Below, piece by piece: positions 6,990 through 18,887 of a stretch of DNA of 43,322 bases. Within the stretch, counting starts at the first letter, position 1. Every line of letters begins with the position of its first letter. Source of the stretch: a virus (taxonomy: Duplodnaviria > Heunggongvirae > Uroviricota > Caudoviricetes); the IMG/VR virus record IMGVR_UViG_638341087_000022. One strand, written 5' to 3'. Below the pieces are notes generated by a model. The model was not told the origin of the DNA, ran no database searches, and worked only from the letters and a program-made list of their open reading frames with translations. A program made the translations under genes and the position numbers.

Positions 6990-7030
6990 AAACACAATGT
7001 TTATTTACGCGTCAACATAATGAGTGTTTT
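6990..7030. promoter_or_regulatory. OL-like operator cluster
   Basis: Motifs AAACACAATGTTTA and CAACATAATG repeat the half-sites found in the cI-cro intergenic region. Confidence 0.35.
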
Positions 7031-7127
7031 TATATAAACAAAAAGTTTAGTTGGTTGCGCTCGTTGGCACGAGTAGTATGTTTTGTGGTCTATTTTGTGG
7101 TTATAAAAAAATCGATGAGGGTGAGTT

Positions 7128-7334
7128 ATGGATCGTGACGAACTGGAAGAAGACCGCGCAGCGTTTATTGCGGGGGAGATTGGTGGCGCAGTTGTCAGTC
7201 TGATAGCTAACGGGATTGTGATCAGCCGCGATGCGATTGTGGATAGTCTAGAGGCTAAGCGCAGGGTAGTGGGAAACGTCATTCACAAGTGGGTATTGCG
7301 GGATGCGGCTGCTATGGTGAGAAAAGGGCAATAA
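7128..7334 (+). CDS. Hypothetical small protein (68 aa)
   Basis: ATG with GAGGGTGAG RBS; ends just before a perfect hairpin terminator; opposite orientation to both flanking operons. Confidence 0.4.
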   Translation: MDRDELEEDRAAFIAGEIGGAVVSLIANGIVISRDAIVDSLEAKRRVVGNVIHKWVLRDAAAMVRKGQ

Positions 7335-8603: not shown

Positions 8604-8999
8604 CTACTCACCATCCCCCTTAATCCGCCGTCCCATGTACTTGGCGTACAGTTCATCGAGTTCTTTCAACCGTAGAGATACGATCCGCAACATGTTCTGT
8701 TGTTCTTCTTCGTTTGGGAGTTGATTATAGAGTTCCAACAGTCTCCGTTCGTCGTGTCTCAAACCGTCCTTAGCATCCACGTCCTGACCTAGAACCCACT
8801 CAAGACTTACGCCTAGCGCATCGGCAAGTTTTATTGCTGAGCTTTTTCCTATCGCTCCTCTGACAAACCAGTTGTTGACTGATTGTGCGCTCACACCACA
8901 GATTCTCGCTATATCCGCTTTGGATATGCGCTTCTTCTCGATGATTTCATTTAACCGCCGAACCTGCGGGTTATCTGTTTGGTGTGTGTTTTTTCTCAT
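8604..8999 (-). CDS. CI-type repressor, HTH (XRE family), no S24 peptidase domain (131 aa)
   Basis: HTH segment ISKADIARICGVSAQSVNNW; divergent from a Cro-like gene across an operator-bearing intergenic region; too short for a LexA-like autocleavage domain. Confidence 0.7.
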   Translation of the reverse strand: MRKNTHQTDNPQVRRLNEIIEKKRISKADIARICGVSAQSVNNWFVRGAIGKSSAIKLADALGVSLEWVLGQDVDAKDGLRHDERRLLELYNQLPNEEEQQNMLRIVSLRLKELDELYAKYMGRRIKGDGE

Positions 9000-9031
9000 A
9001 TATCAAGATTCTAAACTAAAAGTTTATCGCC

Positions 9032-9072
9032 TCAACATTCATAATGTTGACTTGAACATAAACATAATGTTT
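9032..9072. promoter_or_regulatory. OR-like operators
   Basis: TCAACATTCATAATGTTGA (7-bp inverted arms) and AAACATAATGTTT (13-bp palindrome) between the divergent repressor and Cro-like genes. Confidence 0.5.
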
Positions 9073-9102
9073 AATTTGGTTCGTTATTACTTGGAGCCAA
9101 AT

Positions 9103-9336
9103 ATGAAAGCACTTGATAAAGCAATATGCATCGTAGGGGGTGCAACCCGTTTAGCAGAAAAGCTCAATGTATCCCCAATGACGGTCAGTCACTGGCGTCA
9201 CCGTGACAATGGATTCGTACCGGCTAACCGTGTCATTCCTATTTTCAATGCTACAGGTGTAACTCCACATGAGTTACGCCCTGATTTGTACCTCAACCCT
9301 ACGGATGGATTACCGGCTCAGGAAGCGAGGGCATAA
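9103..9336 (+). CDS. Cro/YdaS-like HTH regulator (77 aa)
   Basis: Internal ATG of track ORF 8872..9336 with GGAG RBS; HTH segment GGATRLAEKLNVSPMTVSHW. Confidence 0.6.
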   Translation: MKALDKAICIVGGATRLAEKLNVSPMTVSHWRHRDNGFVPANRVIPIFNATGVTPHELRPDLYLNPTDGLPAQEARA

Positions 9337-9338
9337 CC

Positions 9339-9878
9339 ATGCAGTCACTATCACTTCATCAAAATAGCGGATATCAAACGGCTGCGATGATAAATCGCAA
9401 TCAACCTGTCTCGGTAGATAAACATGACCAGATCCGCGATGCCGTTCGTGCGTGGGCGGGTGTAGATGGTCAGGATGTCGTTTCTGCTCTGATCATCGAA
9501 GAGTACCAGGCTCAAGGGGGAGACGAGATCACTTTCCCTGATGACCTCAGCCGACAGCGTCAGAAGCTTTTCCGCTTTCTGGATAACCATTTCAACAGCG
9601 AACGGTACCGCGAAAACGTTCGCCAGCTGACTCCGGCAATCCTCGCTGTCCTGCCGATTGAATACCGCAATCGTCTGCTACCAGAAGACAACGTAATGGC
9701 TCGTCTGGCAAGGCTGGAGAAGGAAACCAGCGAAGCGAAGATTGCTGTCGCAATGGATGCGCCACGTCATCAGAAGCTGAAAGAGTTGAGCGAGGGGATC
9801 GTGGAGATGTATCGCGTTGACCCTGGGTTAACCGGTCCGTTGATGGAAATGGTGCAGATTATGCTGGGGGCTATATGA
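9339..9878 (+). CDS. CII-position protein, possibly YdaT-like (179 aa)
   Basis: Immediately after the Cro-like gene and before O; assignment is by position and vague recollection only. Confidence 0.35.
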   Translation: MQSLSLHQNSGYQTAAMINRNQPVSVDKHDQIRDAVRAWAGVDGQDVVSALIIEEYQAQGGDEITFPDDLSRQRQKLFRFLDNHFNSERYRENVRQLTPAILAVLPIEYRNRLLPEDNVMARLARLEKETSEAKIAVAMDAPRHQKLKELSEGIVEMYRVDPGLTGPLMEMVQIMLGAI

Positions 9879-9962
9879 CCGGTTCAAAAATGGCGAAAGC
9901 CGCGGTGCTCGAACACCAACGGCTTTCAGGTGCAAAAACAGTGCGTAATTGCGGAGAACAGT

Positions 9963-10871
9963 ATGTCAAACACCGCTGAAATAATCAATTTCCCAAATAA
10001 AACCGAACAACCGGGAGGTCGTATGGCCGACCTGTCGAACGGGTATACCAAGGTCGCTAACGAGATCCAACAGCTTAAGCCTCGCCTGAGACTGTCAGGC
10101 CGGGAATGGCAATGTTTTGAGGCGGTGATCTGGCTTACCTACGGCTGGAACAAGAAACAGGACCGCGTGACAAATACGGTTATTGCCGAGCTTACGGGCC
10201 TGAGCGATACGCATGTATCGGACGCGCTTAAGTCTCTCGCAGAACGCAAAATCATCTTTTCACAGAAGCAGGGCATGATGAAAATCGTCGGTGTAAACAC
10301 TGACCTTTCAGCATGGATTTTAGACAAACCGGAAACGGGAAGAAAATTCCCGAAAACGGGAAAATCCTTCCCGAAATCAGGAATAACCTTCCCGAAAACG
10401 GTAGACACCCAATACAAGAACAAGAACAGTATTAAAAGATCTTCGTCCGAGAATTCTGACGAATCCTCTGACGCACGTCTGAAGAAATTTTTATCAACTC
10501 ATCCTGAAGCTGCGGTCTACACACCATCCGGTGCGAAGTGGGGCTCTGCTGAAGACCTCGAGACAGCTAAGTGGATTTCCTCCAGGGTGAAGCTGATTAA
10601 CCCAACCTGCAAAGCCCCGGACATGACCTCCTGGTCTAACACTGTTCGCCTGATGCGCCAGATAGACGACCGGTCGCACCAGGACATCTGCGCGCTGTAT
10701 GACTGGGCTAGCAAACACCACTTCTGGCAGACCAACATCCTGAGTCCCGAAAGCCTGCGTAAGCAGTGGGACAAGCTGACAATGCAGCGTAACGCCGGAG
10801 GTGAGCAGCGCGCTGTCAAGCCAGATCTGGACTTCAACAACACTGACTGGGCCTATGGGGTGATCCGATGA
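9963..10871 (+). CDS. O: Replication initiator, lambda O-like (302 aa)
   Basis: N-terminus NTAEIINFPNKT and TYGWNK..DR match lambda O; iteron repeats are embedded in the coding sequence. Confidence 0.8.
   Translation: MSNTAEIINFPNKTEQPGGRMADLSNGYTKVANEIQQLKPRLRLSGREWQCFEAVIWLTYGWNKKQDRVTNTVIAELTGLSDTHVSDALKSLAERKIIFSQKQGMMKIVGVNTDLSAWILDKPETGRKFPKTGKSFPKSGITFPKTVDTQYKNKNSIKRSSSENSDESSDARLKKFLSTHPEAAVYTPSGAKWGSAEDLETAKWISSRVKLINPTCKAPDMTSWSNTVRLMRQIDDRSHQDICALYDWASKHHFWQTNILSPESLRKQWDKLTMQRNAGGEQRAVKPDLDFNNTDWAYGVIR
10326..10445. repeat. Replication origin: four iterons plus AT-rich tract inside O
   Basis: Four repeats of the TTCCCGAAAACGGGAA type followed by an AT-rich tract; same pattern as lambda ori iterons. 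Confidence 0.6.
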
Positions 10872-11557
10872 AATCTCTTGCAGAGCAGATGCGTAACCAC
10901 GACCGCGAGCAGATGAGCCGCATGGCCCATAACCTGCCAGAGCAGTACCAGGAGTGCGCGCCGGTCGAGCAGGTGGCGCAGGTATTCAACAAGCTGTTCA
11001 ACGAGCTGCGCGCCGCGTTCCCGGCCAGCATGGCGAACTTCCGCACCCAGGAAGACCTGAACGAATTCCGCCGTCAGTGGCTGCTGGCGTTTCAGGAGAA
11101 CGGGATCCACACCATGGCTCAGGTCGATGCCGGCATGCGCATTGCCCGCCGCCAGGAGCGCCCATTCCTGCCGTCGCCGGGCCAGTTCGTCGCCTGGTGC
11201 AAGCAGAGCGGCGGCGCGCTGGGCGTCAACGTTGACCAGGTGATCGCCGAATACTGGGACTGGCGTAACCGCTCGTTCGAATTCATCTCCAGCGAGCAAT
11301 TTCCATGGTCGCAGCCGGTCATGTACCACATTTGCGTAGAATTGCGCCACCGCAGCACCGAGCGCCAGTTAACGCATGGTGAACTGGCACGCGAGGCAGG
11401 CGATCTGCTGGACATGTGGGAAAGGCGCGTCACCGAGGGTAAGCCAGTGCCGCCGGTACGCCGGGCTATTGCCGCACCAGCTGCCGAGCAAGGGCCGACG
11501 CCGATCCAGCTGCTGCTGGCCAAGTACAACCGCAACAAGTCGAACGGGATGGTGTGA
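10868..11557 (+). CDS. P: Replication protein P (helicase loader), lambda P-like (229 aa)
   Basis: Strong colinear match to lambda P, e.g. RPFLPSPGQFVAWC; ATGA overlap with O. Confidence 0.85.
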   Translation: MKSLAEQMRNHDREQMSRMAHNLPEQYQECAPVEQVAQVFNKLFNELRAAFPASMANFRTQEDLNEFRRQWLLAFQENGIHTMAQVDAGMRIARRQERPFLPSPGQFVAWCKQSGGALGVNVDQVIAEYWDWRNRSFEFISSEQFPWSQPVMYHICVELRHRSTERQLTHGELAREAGDLLDMWERRVTEGKPVPPVRRAIAAPAAEQGPTPIQLLLAKYNRNKSNGMV

Positions 11558-11558
11558 C

Positions 11559-11799
11559 ATGAACATAACAATCCGTGAGCAGGTGCTGGCAGCCCTGCGC
11601 AACAACCCAGGGTTGAACAACGCCAAACTGGCAGGGCTTCCCGGAGTGGTACATCATCGATCAGGACTATCGGGGGCAGAAGTACGCGAAGGACAAGCAG
11701 GTTGCGCGTTGTGGCAACGCAGTTCCGCCGCCATTCGCCGAGGCACTGGTGAGGGCTAATTTACCGGAGCTTTGTCAGCAGAAAGAGATCGCAGCTTAA
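11559..11799 (+). pseudogene. Remnant of a C5-cytosine DNA methyltransferase gene (N-terminal stub joined out of frame to a 3' end)
   Basis: ATG at 11559 gives MNITIREQVLAALRNNPGLNNAKLAG; an alternative frame reads QGFPEWYIIDQDYRGQKYAKDKQVARCGNAVPPPFAEALVRANLPELCQQKEIAA*, a typical C5-MTase C-terminus (GNAVPP motif). Confidence 0.5.
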
Positions 11800-11898
11800 T
11801 GTCCGAGTTTCAGAACATGGTGTAACAAATCCTGCTACTTCAATGACGTAGATTCAAACCTGATATAATTAGGCTCTTCACAACACGAGGAGCCTAAA

Positions 11899-12135
11899 AT
11901 GCACCATTACATGATCCCTATCAACGGAACTGTTCACCTGATCAAGACTGACTCTCTAATCCCTGAAGGGACTGAGTATAGCTTTGAAGGAGAAAGTCTA
12001 ATCTGCGCTCATGCCACTTTTAAATCTGGGACGTATGGCTTCCTGATACCAAAGGGAAATCAGTTGAATAGAGAGCATGCGTTCTGGCATGTAAGTGGAA
12101 TTCACCCTAATCCCCTGGGAATGGATAAATCGTAA
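11899..12135 (+). CDS. Hypothetical moron protein (78 aa)
   Basis: ATG with GAGGAG RBS; AT-rich; sits between two copies of the methyltransferase 3' end. Confidence 0.45.
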   Translation: MHHYMIPINGTVHLIKTDSLIPEGTEYSFEGESLICAHATFKSGTYGFLIPKGNQLNREHAFWHVSGIHPNPLGMDKS

Positions 12136-12289
12136 TCCATAATATGCATGCCATCGTCCTGAACATACGGTGGCATGCATCCGGCACTACAACAGAAACG
12201 TTAAAGTGCAAACAATACAATTCGAGCAATATTCAACCTGTCACAGATGGCGAATACCACCGCCATTTCGTGCATTCTGTGGTTTCTAT

Positions 12290-12387
12290 TACCCATTGCG
12301 TTAATGCTGTCCAATCATCAGCTCGCTGAGGCGCTGGTTAGGGCTAACCTACAGGAGCTTTGTCAGCAGAAACAAATAGCGGCGTAA
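12290..12387 (+). pseudogene. Second, degraded copy of the methyltransferase 3' end
   Basis: Reads ...HCVNAVQSSAR* and, in a shifted frame, EALVRANLQELCQQKQIAA*; direct repeat of 11740-11799 at roughly 85 percent identity. Confidence 0.4.
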
Positions 12388-12406
12388 TAAAACATCGCTA
12401 ATTCAA

Positions 12407-12432
12407 CCCGCTACGGCGGGTTTTCTTTTTTT
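12407..12432 (+). terminator. Intrinsic terminator
   Basis: CCCGC-TACG-GCGGG followed by TTTTCTTTTTTT. Confidence 0.6.
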
Positions 12433-12494
12433 ACTACTGACAGAAAATTAACAATTTGTGCTCTTAAAGCGTTGATCATTTCCGCGCATAGGTA

Positions 12495-12514
12495 TACTGT
12501 ATAAAAACACAGTA
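12495..12514. promoter_or_regulatory. LexA (SOS) box
   Basis: TACTGTATAAAAACACAGTA: perfect CTGT-N8-ACAG, 19 bp upstream of the DinI-like start codon. Confidence 0.65.
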
Positions 12515-12532
12515 AATGCAATGGGGGCCATT

Positions 12533-12766
12533 ATGAAAGTTGAATTAACCATTGATCGCATGAAAGAACTTCCTAAAGGCGCAGTACCAGCACTGGAGAA
12601 AGAACTGCTTAAGCGCCTGAATGATCACTATGACAATTGCAGGCTCACAATCCGCCGTGCCGGGGCCGATGGGTTAAGTGTTTTTGGTGGTGACAAGGAC
12701 GATAAAAAGAAAATTGAATCAATCCTCCAGGATACCTGGGAAAGCGCTGACGACTGGTTTTATTAG
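12533..12766 (+). CDS. dinI: DinI-family protein (77 aa)
   Basis: C-terminal ILQDTWESADDWFY matches E. coli DinI; GGGGG RBS; LexA box upstream. Confidence 0.8.
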   Translation: MKVELTIDRMKELPKGAVPALEKELLKRLNDHYDNCRLTIRRAGADGLSVFGGDKDDKKKIESILQDTWESADDWFY

Positions 12767-12883
12767 AATTGCGCTTAAGGCTGGCGCGCATTTTTCAGAA
12801 TACCGCAATTTGCGTAACCCTCTGATGCTGCTGCCGACAATCTTTAATCGCGTCTGTTAGTCGCTCGAAGGGAGAACATAAAT

Positions 12884-13132
12884 GTGAGTGATTCAGCTTT
12901 GCAAACGTCAGAAGACAACTGGTATGACATTGTAAGAAGGTCTGACGGCTGCGTGGTGTTTAGCTTTCCTTCATCGGGCAGGCATCTAATTTATCGCGTC
13001 AATGGCATGGTTTCTATGCGGCCTTTGCTGGATGATGAAGAGGTCTTTACTCCTAATGGTTTTATGCAGTTTATTCACCGTCTCGGCTACCGGGTAACCC
13101 CACCTTCTGATAATATGAAATCAACGGTCTGA
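12884..13132 (+). CDS. Hypothetical protein (82 aa), downstream of the DinI-like gene
   Basis: GTG start in the ORF track; no terminator between it and the DinI-like gene, so it may be co-transcribed under LexA control. Confidence 0.4.
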   Translation: MSDSALQTSEDNWYDIVRRSDGCVVFSFPSSGRHLIYRVNGMVSMRPLLDDEEVFTPNGFMQFIHRLGYRVTPPSDNMKSTV

Positions 13133-13166: not shown

Positions 13167-13766
13167 ATGGCGCACGAACTACAACTCATCAAGCAGTCAT
13201 CAGGAATCCTGATCCCCGCGACGCCGGAGACCAGCGATATTCTGCAATCAAAAATCAAACTCGGCGCCGTGCTGGTAGCCGAATTTCGCCAGGTGAGGAA
13301 TCCCGCATTCCATCGCCGTTTTTTTGCGCTCCTGAATCTCGGGTTTGAATACTGGGAACCTACTGGAGGGGCGATATCCAGCAATGAGCGTAAGCTCGTA
13401 AATGGTTATGCTAAATTCCTCGCGGCATTTGGTGGAAACGAAGGCGCACTGCTGGATGCTGCCGAGCAATATCTGGACCGCATCGCCGATAAGCGCGCCG
13501 GTAGCATCAGCATCTGCAAATCCTATGATGCTTATCGCGCCTGGGTGATCGTCGAGTCTGGTCACTATGACGCTATTCAGCTTCCTGACGGAACACTTCG
13601 CAAACATCCCCGCAGTATTGCCTTCGCTAACATGGACGAAACCGAATTCCAGGATCTGTATAAATCTGCTCTGGATGTGCTCTGGCGCTGGATATTGTCC
13701 CGCACTTTCAACAGCAGGGAAGAGGCCGAGAATGCCGCCGCCCAGCTTATGAGCTTTGCGGGGTAA
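13167..13766 (+). CDS. nin-region protein of unknown function (199 aa)
   Basis: ATG with GGAGAG RBS; sits where lambdoid prophages carry NinB/YbcN-type genes; no confident motif. Confidence 0.45.
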   Translation: MAHELQLIKQSSGILIPATPETSDILQSKIKLGAVLVAEFRQVRNPAFHRRFFALLNLGFEYWEPTGGAISSNERKLVNGYAKFLAAFGGNEGALLDAAEQYLDRIADKRAGSISICKSYDAYRAWVIVESGHYDAIQLPDGTLRKHPRSIAFANMDETEFQDLYKSALDVLWRWILSRTFNSREEAENAAAQLMSFAG

Positions 13767-14609: not shown

Positions 14610-14743
14610 AGCCAGAAACGCTCGAGGAACTCCGCGCACGCTGGCAGCGCCTTCGCATTTACCGCTACCGTGGATCGGTGCTGGTGGATTACCGCATTCT
14701 TCGTAATTTTGTTCGCATCTATCATTCAGCAGGAGCCGCATAA
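14606..14743 (+). CDS. Small basic protein (45 aa), YlcG-position; not in the ORF track
   Basis: ATGA overlap with rusA and TAATG overlap with Q; same size and position as DLP12 ylcG. Confidence 0.4.
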   Translation: MKPETLEELRARWQRLRIYRYRGSVLVDYRILRNFVRIYHSAGAA

Positions 14744-15552
14744 TGAACCTCGAATCAATCGCTAAATATTTCGCGCCAAAATCACCGATGTTCAGTGACT
14801 CCTCGAGGGCGACTGCCACCGACAACCTGACCGGAACTGATGTTATGGCCGCGCTTGGACTGGTTAACGCCAAGTGTGGGTTTGGATTTGATTTGTACCT
14901 TGCAAAAATTGGCATCAGCAGCCCGGATCGGGCAATGGAGGCGCTTTATGAATCATCCGTTGAACTTTGCCGACGCTTCAAATCAGTTTCAGAACTCAAT
15001 GAAGAAATCCGTCGGCGAGTTCTCGAAATTTTGTGTGCTTTTGCATATCAGGATTATGCCCGCAGCGCGGCAAGTGTCAGACGCTGTGATTGCTGCGCTG
15101 GTAGCGGCCTCATCGAAGCTGATGTCTTCACAAACAAGGTCCAATACCCGGACGGTAAGCCTCCGGTATGGGCGAAGGCTACAAAAGGAGTGTTTCCGTC
15201 GTATTGGGAAGAATGGAAGTCTGTACGGGAGACTGCGCGGGTTATGTGCAATACCTGTAACGGCAAGGGTGTTATCAGCAATGCGTGTCGCTGTCATGGG
15301 AAAGGGAAGGTACTGGATAAGAAGGCAACTGAATTACAGGGCGTTCCGGTGATGAAAGTTTGTGAGCGGTGTACGGGCAGAGGTTATGCCAGGTTAAAAT
15401 TCTCCAATGTGTTAGAAGGTATCCGCACCACATGGGATGTGAAGAAAACGACGGCATATGAGCAAGTGCAACCGTTGTTTGAACTGCTGGTGGAGGAATG
15501 CCATCGTCAGGAGAGTTATGCAGACAGCGCCTTAAAGTCAGTTACCCGTTAG
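14743..15552 (+). CDS. Q: Late-gene antiterminator Q, lambda-type (269 aa)
   Basis: N-terminus ESIAKYFAPKSPMFSDSSRATATDNLTGTDVMAALG closely parallels lambda Q; CxxC Zn-finger pairs; C-terminal ESYADSALKSVTR parallels lambda ESIADNILNAVTR. Confidence 0.85.
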   Translation: MNLESIAKYFAPKSPMFSDSSRATATDNLTGTDVMAALGLVNAKCGFGFDLYLAKIGISSPDRAMEALYESSVELCRRFKSVSELNEEIRRRVLEILCAFAYQDYARSAASVRRCDCCAGSGLIEADVFTNKVQYPDGKPPVWAKATKGVFPSYWEEWKSVRETARVMCNTCNGKGVISNACRCHGKGKVLDKKATELQGVPVMKVCERCTGRGYARLKFSNVLEGIRTTWDVKKTTAYEQVQPLFELLVEECHRQESYADSALKSVTR

Positions 15553-17834: not shown

Positions 17835-18887
17835 ATGAAAAATACTGTAAATATAAACAGTGTTGAGTTAGTCAACGCTGATAGCCTGCAATACATCGCC
17901 ACTCTCCCTGATAACTCCATTGACCTGATAGTCACGGATCCGCCGTACTTCAAAGTGAAACCCAACGGCTGGGACAATCAGTGGAAAGGGGATGAGGATT
18001 ATCTTCGCTGGCTTGATATGTGCCTCGCACAATTCTGGCGAGTGCTTAAACCTGCTGGCAGTCTTTATCTTTTCTCCGGTCACCGCCTGGCGGCAGACAT
18101 TGAGATCATGATGCGTGAGCGGTTCAACGTCCTGAACCACATCATCTGGGCTAAACCGTCGGGCCGCTGGAATGGCTGTAATAAAGAGAGTCTGCGCTCT
18201 TACTTCCCTGCAACAGAGCGCATCCTCTTCGCTGAGCATTACCAGGGGCCGTATAAACCAAAGAGCGACGGTTACGCGGAGAAGGGAAGCGAGCTGAAGC
18301 AGCATGTAATGACTCCCCTAATTTCTTATTTCCGGGATGCACGTGAAGCGCTTGGCATAACCTCAAAACAAATAGCCGATGCGACTGGAAAGAAGAACAT
18401 GGTGTCTCACTGGTTCAGCGGTAGCCAGTGGCAATTACCGAATGAATCAGACTACCGGAATCTTCAGTCCCTTTTCACGCAGGTAGCCATCGAAAAGCAC
18501 CAGAACGGCGAACTGGCAACACCACACCACCAGCTGGTGGCTATGTGGCATTCTTTAAATCGCAAGTATTCAGAGCTGCTCGAAGAGTACAAATCGCTTC
18601 GGCGGCATTTCTCTGTTTCCGTATCCGTTCCTTATACCGACGTCTGGACACATAAAACCGTTCAGTTTTACCCAGGTAAACACCCATGCGAAAAACCCGC
18701 TGACATGTTGCGGCAGATCATCAACGCCAGCAGTAAGCCTGGTGATGTGGTGGCTGATTTCTTTATGGGGTCCGGTTCGACCGTGAAAATCGCGCTGGAA
18801 CTTGGCCGCCAGGCTATCGGCGTTGAACTCGAGGAGGACAGGTTTAGCCAGACGGTGGAGGAAATAAGGGCGTTAACAGGGGAATAA
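17835..18887 (+). CDS. DNA methyltransferase, N6-adenine/N4-cytosine type (350 aa)
   Basis: DPPY catalytic motif near the N-terminus (IVTDPPYF) and AdoMet-binding motif near the C-terminus (DFFMGSGST); no adjacent restriction gene. Confidence 0.8.
   Translation: MKNTVNINSVELVNADSLQYIATLPDNSIDLIVTDPPYFKVKPNGWDNQWKGDEDYLRWLDMCLAQFWRVLKPAGSLYLFSGHRLAADIEIMMRERFNVLNHIIWAKPSGRWNGCNKESLRSYFPATERILFAEHYQGPYKPKSDGYAEKGSELKQHVMTPLISYFRDAREALGITSKQIADATGKKNMVSHWFSGSQWQLPNESDYRNLQSLFTQVAIEKHQNGELATPHHQLVAMWHSLNRKYSELLEEYKSLRRHFSVSVSVPYTDVWTHKTVQFYPGKHPCEKPADMLRQIINASSKPGDVVADFFMGSGSTVKIALELGRQAIGVELEEDRFSQTVEEIRALTGE

What the first reader, a model, noticed from the sequence alone, without database searches (positions are those of the whole stretch)
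8604..13132. Repressor without an autocleavage domain, plus a LexA box driving a DinI-like gene and a downstream ORF
Seen: the repressor is only 131 aa (HTH plus a short C-terminus), too small for an S24 peptidase domain. A perfect LexA box (CTGT-N8-ACAG, 12497-12512) lies 19 bp upstream of a DinI-family gene, followed by an 82-aa ORF with no intervening terminator. Established: phages with non-cleavable repressors are often induced through SOS-controlled antirepressors. Inference: SOS input to this prophage may pass through the LexA-controlled dinI-orf82 unit, with the 82-aa protein as antirepressor candidate and the DinI-like protein modulating RecA.
Basis: partly seen in the sequence, partly recalled or inferred. 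Interest (0 to 1): 0.55.

Follow-up and report, generated by a model that had tools for sequence, protein, structure and literature searches.

The report
Gifsy-type SOS antirepressor switch, E. coli prophage

Summary
A 131-aa repressor with only a helix-turn-helix domain lies at 8604-8999 (-). A perfect LexA box (12497-12512) overlaps the -10 of a promoter in front of a dinI gene (12533-12766). An 82-aa GTG-start ORF (12884-13132) follows, then a DUF1367/irsA gene.

In the Gifsy prophages, a short non-cleavable repressor is inactivated by a small antirepressor. That antirepressor is encoded in a LexA-repressed dinI-antirepressor-irsA operon.

The match is orthology, not just analogy. I identified true Gifsy-1 (ATCC14028-type) loci through exact matches to that paper's gfoR and gfoA cloning primers. 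The 82-aa protein is 93% identical to the GfoA encoded there. The repressor is 74% identical to GfoR, with an identical stretch covering the predicted recognition helix and similar operator palindromes.

A perfect LexA box sits upstream of dinI in all 90 loci examined (89 related loci plus the window). There are seven spacer variants, and the half-sites never change. Heteroimmune repressors paired with near-identical antirepressors share a conserved C-terminal module.

Novelty is low. The useful by-products are an annotation gap (PGAP and PHROGs give the antirepressor no function) and a conserved 116-117-nt dinI-antirepressor spacer of unknown role.

The parts
8604..8999 (-). Immunity repressor, GfoR orthologue (131 aa: N-terminal HTH plus a helical C-terminal module with the LLELYxQLP...SLRLKELDELYAKYM motif). 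No S24 peptidase domain.
   Evidence: ORF. Pfam finds HTH only. 74% identity to GfoR from a locus where both gfoR cloning primers match exactly. 27% identity to GtgR and 30% to DicA, both including the C-terminal motif.
9000..9102 (.). Divergent promoter and operator region. Palindromes at 9012-9026 (TAAAC-N5-GTTTA), 9032-9050 (TCAACATT-CAT-AATGTTGA) and 9059-9073 (TAAAC-N5-GTTTA). Rightward promoter read by eye: TTGACT 9047-9052, 17 nt, TTTAAT 9070-9075. Leftward promoter: TTGAGG 9035-9030, 16 nt, TAGAAT 9013-9008, which would give a near-leaderless repressor mRNA.
   Evidence: Inverted and direct repeats. Leftward promoter. The palindromes are largely conserved in the Gifsy-1 (14028-type) locus L068. 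Assigning them as operators is inference.
9103..9336 (+). Cro-like regulator (YdaS family HTH), divergent from the repressor gene.
   Evidence: Pfam PF15943 E=7.6e-16 and P22_Cro E=3.8e-4. phrog_35.
9339..9878 (+). CII-like / YdaT-family protein.
   Evidence: Pfam PF06254 E=1.9e-25. phrog_163 'CII-like transcriptional activator' E=1e-57.
12405..12422 (+). Strong intrinsic terminator (7-bp stem, 5 G-C, then TTCTTTTTTT) just upstream of the dinI promoter. It would insulate the SOS unit from early-right transcription.
   Evidence: The insulating role is inference.
12472..12498 (+). PdinI-gfoA promoter: TTGATC (12472-12477), 15-nt spacer, TATACT (12493-12498). The -10 overlaps the left half of the LexA box.
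   Evidence: Read. TTGA and AGGTATACTGT are invariant between the window, mEp237 and Gifsy-2. The 15-nt spacer lies outside the 16-18 range of the scan, so it was not listed there. A -10 SNP in this promoter abolishes Gifsy-1 induction in D23580 (PMC5322425).
12495..12514 (.). LexA box TACTGTATAAAAACACAGTA (core CTGT-N8-ACAG at 12497-12512).
   Evidence: Present in all 90 loci examined, with 7 different N8 spacers and invariant half-sites.
12533..12766 (+). dinI homologue (77 aa), first gene of the LexA-controlled operon.
   Evidence: Pfam DinI E=4.3e-26. NCBIfam PRK10597 E=4.4e-26, below its equivalog cutoff. PGAP 'DinI family protein' in a 99.1% identical E. coli locus.
12767..12883 (+). Conserved 117-nt spacer between dinI and the antirepressor gene. 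It contains a weak terminator-like hairpin (12770-12788 plus a T-run) and the Shine-Dalgarno sequence GGGAG (12872-12876).
   Evidence: Length is 116-117 nt in 86 of 90 loci. About 93% identical to Gifsy-2, although the Gifsy-2 antirepressor GftA cannot be aligned. Related but shorter in a Klebsiella phage, which has a different hairpin right after the dinI stop. Function unknown; the RNA fold is no more stable than shuffles.
12884..13132 (+). Antirepressor, GfoA orthologue (82 aa, GTG start).
   Evidence: 93% identity (76/82) to GfoA of the Gifsy-1 14028-type locus L068. The gfoA forward primer pp866 matches 12888-12904 with 1 mismatch and matches the Salmonella loci exactly. phrog_340, listed as 'unknown function'. 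AF2 model: four beta-strands plus one helix, pLDDT 81.7.
13167..13766 (+). irsA homologue (DUF1367), the third gene in the Gifsy operon order.
   Evidence: Pfam PF07105 E=1.1e-92. 87% identity to Gifsy-2 STM1020.

Best explanation
This is the immunity and induction circuit of a lambdoid prophage, most likely in E. coli, built like those of Salmonella Gifsy-1 and Gifsy-3. In the lysogen, the 131-aa GfoR-type repressor binds palindromic operators between its own gene and the cro-like gene and keeps the lytic promoters off. It has no protease domain and is not cleaved. About 3.5 kb away, host LexA sits on a box overlapping the -10 of the dinI promoter and silences a dinI-gfoA-irsA transcription unit. 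An upstream terminator shields this unit from early-right transcription. DNA damage activates RecA, LexA cleaves itself, and the operon is transcribed. The 82-aa GfoA-type antirepressor then accumulates, binds the repressor (in Gifsy, a stable complex consistent with A2B2) and takes it off the DNA, which starts lytic development. Shown here: all the sequence features, their orthology to the tested Gifsy-1 genes, and their conservation. Inferred from Gifsy experiments: LexA control, co-transcription, binding, and lack of cleavage. Inferred by me: the antirepressor recognises the conserved C-terminal module of the repressor, and the hairpin after dinI attenuates rather than stops transcription.
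For: 1. Published mechanism and operon order (dinI, GUG-start antirepressor, irsA; LexA box; non-cleaved 136-aa-class repressors; pull-downs): PMC3121763.
2. Loci L068 and L090 match both gfoR primers (le144, le145) and the gfoA forward primer exactly, so they encode true GfoR and GfoA. The window proteins are 74% and 93% identical to them.
3. Residues 31-52 of the repressor (ARICGVSAQSVNNWFVRG) are identical to GfoR, and the operator palindromes are similar.
4. All 90 loci examined have a perfect LexA box upstream of dinI, with 7 spacer variants.
5. All 40 IMG/VR loci whose flank reaches the immunity region carry a repressor of this family; 39 are at least 52% identical to the window's. At least 15 of 17 phage records with an orf82 relative also have a repressor relative.
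6. Among 29 distinct repressors paired with antirepressors at least 91% identical to orf82, mean pairwise identity is 0.58 for residues 1-72 and 0.78 for residues 80-125.
7. A SNP in the -10 of PdinI-gfoA is enough to abolish Gifsy-1 induction (PMC5322425).
Against: Nothing was tested biochemically for this element. The repressor is 26% diverged from GfoR, and antirepressor specificity can be narrow: GtgR is insensitive to GfoA (PMC3121763). A terminator-like hairpin lies between dinI and orf82. The promoter has a short 15-nt spacer. The C-terminal-module argument is only correlative, because that module could be conserved for dimerisation alone.
Confidence: 0.82

Rival explanations
1. The module is present, but the resident antirepressor and repressor are not a working pair. 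Modules have been shuffled, so induction would depend on an antirepressor supplied in trans by another prophage, or would not occur.
For: Mosaic boundaries flank the spacer-antirepressor block at about 12733 and 13153. mEp237 shares the antirepressor at 97.6% identity, but its nearest repressor paralogue is only 72.5% identical. Locus L070 pairs a GtgR-type repressor (exact gftR primer match) with a GfoA-type antirepressor, and PMC3121763 reports that GfoA does not act on GtgR. LT2 Gifsy-1 carries gftA rather than gfoA.
Against: GfoA and GfhA each act on both GfoR and GfhR, which are heteroimmune (PMC3121763). The window's repressor has the conserved C-terminal module shared by all repressors found with this antirepressor type. 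39 of 40 loci show this pairing.
Confidence: 0.08
2. LexA controls only dinI. The hairpin at 12770-12788 terminates transcription, and orf82 is silent or expressed from another signal.
For: Terminator-like site. The spacer is conserved and could hold an independent promoter or regulatory site.
Against: The same spacer, about 93% identical, is present in Gifsy-2. There, replacing the LexA box upstream of dinI with PBAD makes induction arabinose-dependent, and the antirepressor accumulates after mitomycin C (PMC3121763). In Gifsy-1 a PdinI -10 SNP blocks induction (PMC5322425). The hairpin is short, and the region folds no better than shuffled sequence (z=+1.06). No sigma-70-like site was listed in the spacer.
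Confidence: 0.05
3. The 131-aa protein is not the immunity repressor. It could be an accessory regulator or the HTH partner of a YdaS/YdaT-type module, and the prophage is defective or controlled elsewhere.
For: Pfam labels the neighbours 'YdaS toxin' and 'YdaT toxin'. Some relatives carry two tandem repressor paralogues, so roles could be split.
Against: 74% identity to GfoR, for which immunity was shown (PMC3121763). It is divergent from a cro-like gene with operator-like palindromes. The window carries a full lambdoid gene set: integrase, RecE/RecT, O/P, Q, methylase and large late-region ORFs. Near-identical modules occur in the isolated phage mEp237.
Confidence: 0.03

Closest known systems
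Gifsy-1 / Gifsy-3 GfoR-GfoA (GfhR-GfhA) repressor-antirepressor system of Salmonella Typhimurium ATCC14028 (Lemire, Figueroa-Bossi and Bossi 2011, PMC3121763)
   Same: The operon is the same: LexA box, dinI, about 117-nt spacer, non-ATG-start small ORF, irsA/DUF1367. The antirepressor is 93% identical and the repressor 74% identical, with an identical stretch over the predicted recognition helix and similar operators. The module sits in the nin region, separate from the immunity region.
   Different: The host and phage backbone differ: an mEp237/phi80-like O/P replication module in E. coli (99.1% identical loci in E. coli genomes) rather than Gifsy's O/DnaC. The repressor's N-terminal 30 residues and extreme C-terminus differ. 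Nothing has been tested experimentally for this element.
Gifsy-2 GtgR(GftR)-GftA
   Same: Same architecture, LexA box position, conserved dinI-antirepressor spacer (about 93% identity) and irsA (87%).
   Different: GftA is only marginally related: hhalign probability 26-47%, E 7e-4 to 2e-4, over 52 collinear columns. BLASTP is not significant. The repressor is only 27% identical. PMC3121763 reports that the two types are not cross-reactive.
Coliphage 186 Tum and P2-like relatives (LexA-controlled p95 operon)
   Same: A LexA-repressed promoter drives an antirepressor linked to a DinI-like sequence, and a partial terminator follows it (t95a, annotated in NC_001317).
   Different: Tum is a single polypeptide with the antirepressor part in front of the DinI-like part, so the order is reversed. 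There is no detectable similarity between the orf82 family and Tum's N-terminal half (hhalign probability 0.3%). Tum's target, 186 CI, is unrelated.
DicA-Rem of the Qin cryptic prophage, E. coli K-12 (bioRxiv 10.1101/2023.04.14.536235)
   Same: A short DicA-type repressor (30% identity to the window's, including the LLELFxxLP motif) is relieved by a small antirepressor of about 83 aa. That antirepressor was found by iterated searches starting from GfoA.
   Different: Similarity between Rem and the orf82 family is not significant here. The signal that induces Rem is unknown, and I did not look for a LexA box or a dinI gene near it.
Lambda CI / P22 C2 / LexA-type self-cleaving repressors
   Same: N-terminal HTH, divergent from cro, multiple operators, SOS-responsive induction.
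   Different: There is no S24 peptidase domain and no room for one in 131 aa. The SOS signal is read by host LexA at a distant promoter instead of by the repressor itself, so induction is reversible in principle.

Membership tests
Gifsy-type LexA-controlled antirepressor module (GfoR/GfoA) | Short (about 130-140 aa) HTH repressor without an S24 autocleavage domain | tested here: met
   131 aa, with only HTH Pfam families.
Gifsy-type LexA-controlled antirepressor module (GfoR/GfoA) | Repressor homologous to GfoR/GtgR | tested here: met
   74% identity over 127 aa to GfoR from L068, E=2e-73. L068 was identified by exact matches to primers le144 and le145. 27% identity to GtgR, E=1e-9.
Gifsy-type LexA-controlled antirepressor module (GfoR/GfoA) | LexA box overlapping the promoter of a dinI homologue, outside the immunity region | tested here: met
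   12497-12512. Conserved in all 90 loci examined. It lies 3.5 kb from the repressor gene.
Gifsy-type LexA-controlled antirepressor module (GfoR/GfoA) | Small ORF with a non-ATG start between dinI and irsA, homologous to GfoA | tested here: met
   GTG start at 12884. 93% identity to GfoA. Primer pp866 matches with 1 mismatch. DUF1367/irsA lies downstream.
Gifsy-type LexA-controlled antirepressor module (GfoR/GfoA) | Repressor not cleaved on SOS induction; antirepressor binds it and releases it from the operator; induction blocked in lexA(Ind-) | not testable with these tools
   Known only for Gifsy-1 and Gifsy-2 (PMC3121763). Needs Western blots, pull-downs, EMSA and genetics on this element.
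Lambda CI / LexA family (S24 self-cleaving repressors) | C-terminal Peptidase_S24 domain with Ser/Lys dyad and an Ala-Gly cleavage site | tested here: not met
   No S24 hit at E<=0.01. The protein ends about 55 residues after the HTH.
Tum (phage 186) antirepressor | Sequence similarity to the Tum N-terminal antirepressor half, fused to a DinI-like half | tested here: not met
   hhalign probability 0.3%. Here DinI and the antirepressor are separate genes in the opposite order.
P22 Ant / Bro-N / KilAC-type antirepressors | ANT, Bro-N or KilA-type domains (proteins of roughly 200-300 aa) | tested here: not met
   orf82 has no Pfam or NCBIfam hit and is 82 aa.
DicA-Rem (Qin) | DicA-family repressor plus a Rem-like small antirepressor | tested here: inconclusive
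   Repressor side met (30% identity to DicA, E=7e-9; NCBIfam DicA model E=1.6e-6 but far below its cutoff). Rem side not significant.

The most novel reading that the evidence does not exclude
The 116-117-nt spacer between dinI and the antirepressor gene is kept at about 93% identity even where the antirepressor gene has been swapped for a barely related one (Gifsy-2 GftA). It could be a cis-regulatory element: a partial terminator or translational gate. Such a gate would set how much antirepressor is made per dinI transcript, and so set the SOS threshold at which these prophages commit to lysis. This would parallel the partial terminator t95a after tum in phage 186.
Probability: 0.2. Interest if true: 0.4.

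Novelty: already known. Interest (0 to 1): 0.15.

Why it matters
As biology it adds little. The mechanism was established in 2011, and its authors already noted that the dinI-irsA region is conserved in Escherichia, Citrobacter, Klebsiella and Enterobacter prophages.

It has practical value in three ways.
- **Annotation gap.** Databases still give the antirepressor no function. PGAP calls it 'hypothetical protein', phrog_340, phrog_1813 and phrog_4847 are 'unknown function', and there is no Pfam or NCBIfam model. SOS-inducible prophages of this type are therefore easily mis-scored as lacking an induction route.
- **Prevalence.** The module is common: 394 IMG/VR contigs encode a relative of the antirepressor, and 191 of 5426 complete E. 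coli genomes match at least part of the 5-kb region.
- **Cross-induction.** One near-identical antirepressor is paired with several heteroimmune repressors that share a C-terminal module. This predicts cross-induction between co-resident E. coli prophages, as shown for Gifsy-1 and Gifsy-3.

Tried and rejected
- **Direct similarity of orf82 to Gifsy-2 GftA.** BLASTP is not significant. Profile-profile comparison gives only probability 26-47%. The link to Gifsy was instead made through GfoA, using the primer sequences printed in PMC3121763.
- **Reverse gfoA primer pp867.** It has no exact match in any locus or in IMG/VR. It matches 20 of 22 bases in true Gifsy-1 loci. I take the two 5' bases printed with the annealing part to belong to the linker.
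- **Tum N-terminal half and Rem as relatives of orf82.** Neither is significant.
- **Solved structures.** No sequence match for orf82 or the repressor.
- **Fold of orf82.** The AF2 model has pLDDT 81.7. Foldseek finds nothing significant in the PDB (best E=1.9), and in BFVD only an uncharacterised protein 60% identical to orf82, evidently a family member.
- **Structured RNA in the dinI-orf82 spacer.** The fold is no better than shuffles (z=+1.06). No Rfam family matches in the window except a tRNA. Hairpin variants in related loci show no clear compensatory changes.
- **Coding potential of the spacer.** I considered a small ORF in another frame. Its length is not conserved between the window and Gifsy-2, so I dropped it.
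- **Not done.** A third database search plus a structure model of the repressor; it would not change the verdict.


Full report
**What is in the sequence.** The finding spans the immunity region and part of the nin region of a complete lambdoid prophage. The window carries an integrase at 1-1194, RecT and RecE-like genes, O and P replication genes, a Q antiterminator at 14743-15552, a tRNA, a DNA methylase and large late-region ORFs. The 5-kb region is 99.1% identical over its full length to chromosomal loci in three complete E. coli genomes. Part of it matches in 191 of 5426 genomes. From 9252 rightwards it is 98.7% identical to coliphage mEp237.

**Checking the observation.** The repressor ORF (8604-8999, minus strand, 131 aa) matches only helix-turn-helix Pfam families and has no Peptidase_S24 domain. 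It is transcribed divergently from a YdaS-family Cro-like gene (9103-9336), which is followed by a YdaT/CII-like gene. The 103-bp gap between them holds three palindromes and promoter-like hexamers.

CTGT-N8-ACAG occurs at 12497-12512. Counted across the window the motif is only mildly unexpected: 2 hits against 0.49 expected, and 8 of 100 shuffles reach two. Its context is what matters. It overlaps a TATACT -10 hexamer, lies 20 nt before the ATG (12533) of a DinI-family gene (Pfam E=4.3e-26), and sits just downstream of a strong intrinsic terminator (12405-12422).

The 82-aa ORF starts with GTG at 12884 behind a GGGAG Shine-Dalgarno sequence. The scan does flag a weak terminator-like hairpin between dinI and this ORF (12770-12788).

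**What it is.** A literature search led to Lemire, Figueroa-Bossi and Bossi 2011 (PMC3121763). That paper showed the following:
- The Gifsy prophage repressors are small and are not cleaved on induction.
- They are inactivated by binding of small antirepressors (GfoA, GfhA, GftA).
- The first gene of that operon is a dinI homologue, the second is the antirepressor (non-canonical start codon), and the third is an irsA homologue.

The window shows exactly this order. The gene after orf82 (13167-13766) is DUF1367 and is 87% identical to Gifsy-2 STM1020, the gene at the irsA position.

**Orthology, not just analogy.** The Gifsy-2 antirepressor GftA sits at the same position (L002 11464-11685, GTG start) but is barely alignable with orf82. 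The GfoA sequence is given only in a figure. I therefore used the cloning primers printed in the paper.
- The annealing part of the gfoA forward primer matches window 12888-12904 with one mismatch. It matches Salmonella loci encoding a 90%-identical protein exactly.
- Among 80 IMG/VR loci retrieved with the orf82 family, two (L068, L090) match both gfoR primers and the gfoA forward primer exactly. These are Gifsy-1 of the ATCC14028 type.
- Their GfoA is 93% identical to orf82 (76/82).
- Their GfoR is 74% identical to the window's repressor, with an identical stretch ARICGVSAQSVNNWFVRG over the predicted recognition helix. The operator palindromes are largely shared. Immunity may therefore be related, though I did not test this.

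The gfoA reverse primer matches 20 of 22 bases in these loci. I take its two 5' bases to be linker.

**Conservation supports function.**
- All 90 loci examined (89 related loci plus the window) have a perfect CTGT-N8-ACAG upstream of dinI. It lies 20-21 nt upstream in 89 of them. There are seven different N8 spacers, the half-sites never change, and DinI identity ranges from 64 to 100%.
- All 40 IMG/VR loci whose flank reaches the immunity region carry a repressor of this family next to a cro-like gene. In 39 it is at least 52% identical to the window's. The exception (L070) has a GtgR-type repressor.
- In GenBank phages, at least 15 of 17 records with an orf82 relative also have a repressor relative. 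These include distant cases such as Aeromonas phage pAEv1818, which keeps the DicA-like repressor, YdaT gene, dinI, small ORF and DUF1367 layout.
- The antirepressors in these loci are at least 91% identical, yet the repressors fall into several N-terminal (immunity) types that share a C-terminal module (...LLELYRQLPEEEQQNM.RI.SLRLKELDELYAKYM...). Mean pairwise identity is 0.58 for residues 1-72 and 0.78 for residues 80-125.

The last point fits the published finding that GfoA and GfhA inactivate both GfoR and GfhR although those phages are heteroimmune. It suggests, by correlation only, that the C-terminal module is what the antirepressor recognises.

**Mechanism.** In the lysogen the repressor holds the early promoters off, and LexA holds PdinI-gfoA off. 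After DNA damage LexA is cleaved and the operon is transcribed. The antirepressor accumulates, binds the repressor and removes it from DNA. For the Gifsy systems these steps are supported by lexA3 genetics, PBAD replacement of the LexA box, Western blots, pull-downs and gel filtration (PMC3121763). A single -10 SNP in PdinI-gfoA also silences Gifsy-1 in strain D23580 (PMC5322425). For the present element they are inferred from orthology. The role of DinI remains open, because dinI and irsA deletions had no significant effect on Gifsy induction (PMC3121763).

**Comparison with other systems.**
- Phage 186 Tum is the classical LexA-controlled antirepressor, but it shows no similarity to orf82 and fuses the DinI-like part behind the antirepressor part.
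- E. coli K-12 Qin has DicA and Rem (bioRxiv 10.1101/2023.04.14.536235). DicA is 30% identical to the window's repressor. Similarity to Rem is not significant here.
- An exhaustive profile search found only 39 representative relatives of orf82 at E<=1e-3, so the family is small.
- Neither protein has a solved relative.
- The AF2 model of orf82 has four strands and one helix, with pLDDT 81.7. It has no significant structural neighbour in the PDB. In BFVD its only significant neighbour is an uncharacterised protein 60% identical to it, evidently a family member.

**Verdict.** The window holds an E. coli-type orthologue of the Gifsy-1 GfoR/GfoA circuit. Two things remain worth noting. First, there is an annotation gap: PGAP calls the antirepressor 'hypothetical protein', PHROGs list it as 'unknown function', and there is no Pfam or NCBIfam model. 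Second, a 116-117-nt dinI-antirepressor spacer is conserved even across antirepressor types, and its role is unknown.

Noticed in passing
window 17843-17862: A second good LexA-like box, TACTGTAAATATAAACAGTG, lies inside codons 4-9 of an N6/N4 DNA methylase gene (17835-18887). That gene sits in the late region, after Q and a tRNA. The CTGT/ACAG half-sites are kept in mEp460 and phage LLS while two spacer bases change. The flanks there are 93% identical too, so this is weak evidence.
   Followed up: partly
window 12767-12883; L002 11353-11463: The dinI-antirepressor spacer has a fixed length (116-117 nt in 86 of 90 loci). It is about 93% identical to Gifsy-2, although the Gifsy-2 antirepressor gene cannot be aligned. 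A mosaic boundary lies inside the dinI 3' end at about 12733. A Klebsiella phage has a shorter, related spacer with a different hairpin right after the dinI stop. More distant phages (SPN3UB, Chris1, pAEv1818) have unrelated spacers of 42-45 nt.
   Followed up: partly
L070 (IMGVR_UViG_2724679262_000001), repressor 824-1192, antirepressor 7001-7246: This locus pairs a GtgR-type repressor (exact gftR primer match) with a GfoA-type antirepressor. According to Lemire et al. 2011 this pair should not interact, so the prophage may depend on an antirepressor supplied in trans.
   Followed up: no
L001 (mEp237) 1968-2360 and 2380-2847; also L052, L066, L088, L067/L069/L077: Several phages carry two tandem paralogous repressor genes with different HTH domains but the same C-terminal module. 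The mEp237 gp39 annotation starts 13 bp from cro. It probably corresponds to the long 'GfhR*' form described for Gifsy-3, with the real start at the internal MSENTM... codon.
   Followed up: partly
window 11735-11800 and 12323-12388: A 66-nt direct repeat (83% identical) encodes the C-terminal end of a cytosine methylase. The two copies bracket a 78-aa ORF of unknown function (11899-12135, phrog_30079). It looks like a moron insertion with duplication and deletion relative to mEp237.
   Followed up: no
window 12884-13132; L096 5985-6233: The GfoA orthologue is 'hypothetical protein' in RefSeq/PGAP (WP_001568777.1). Its PHROG families (340, 1813; 4847 for GftA) are labelled 'unknown function', although the function was published in 2011.
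   Followed up: yes
window 8999-9013: The predicted -10 of the repressor promoter (TAGAAT, 9013-9008) ends 8 nt before the repressor ATG (8999). The repressor mRNA may therefore be leaderless or nearly so, as for lambda cI from PRM (inference).
   Followed up: no
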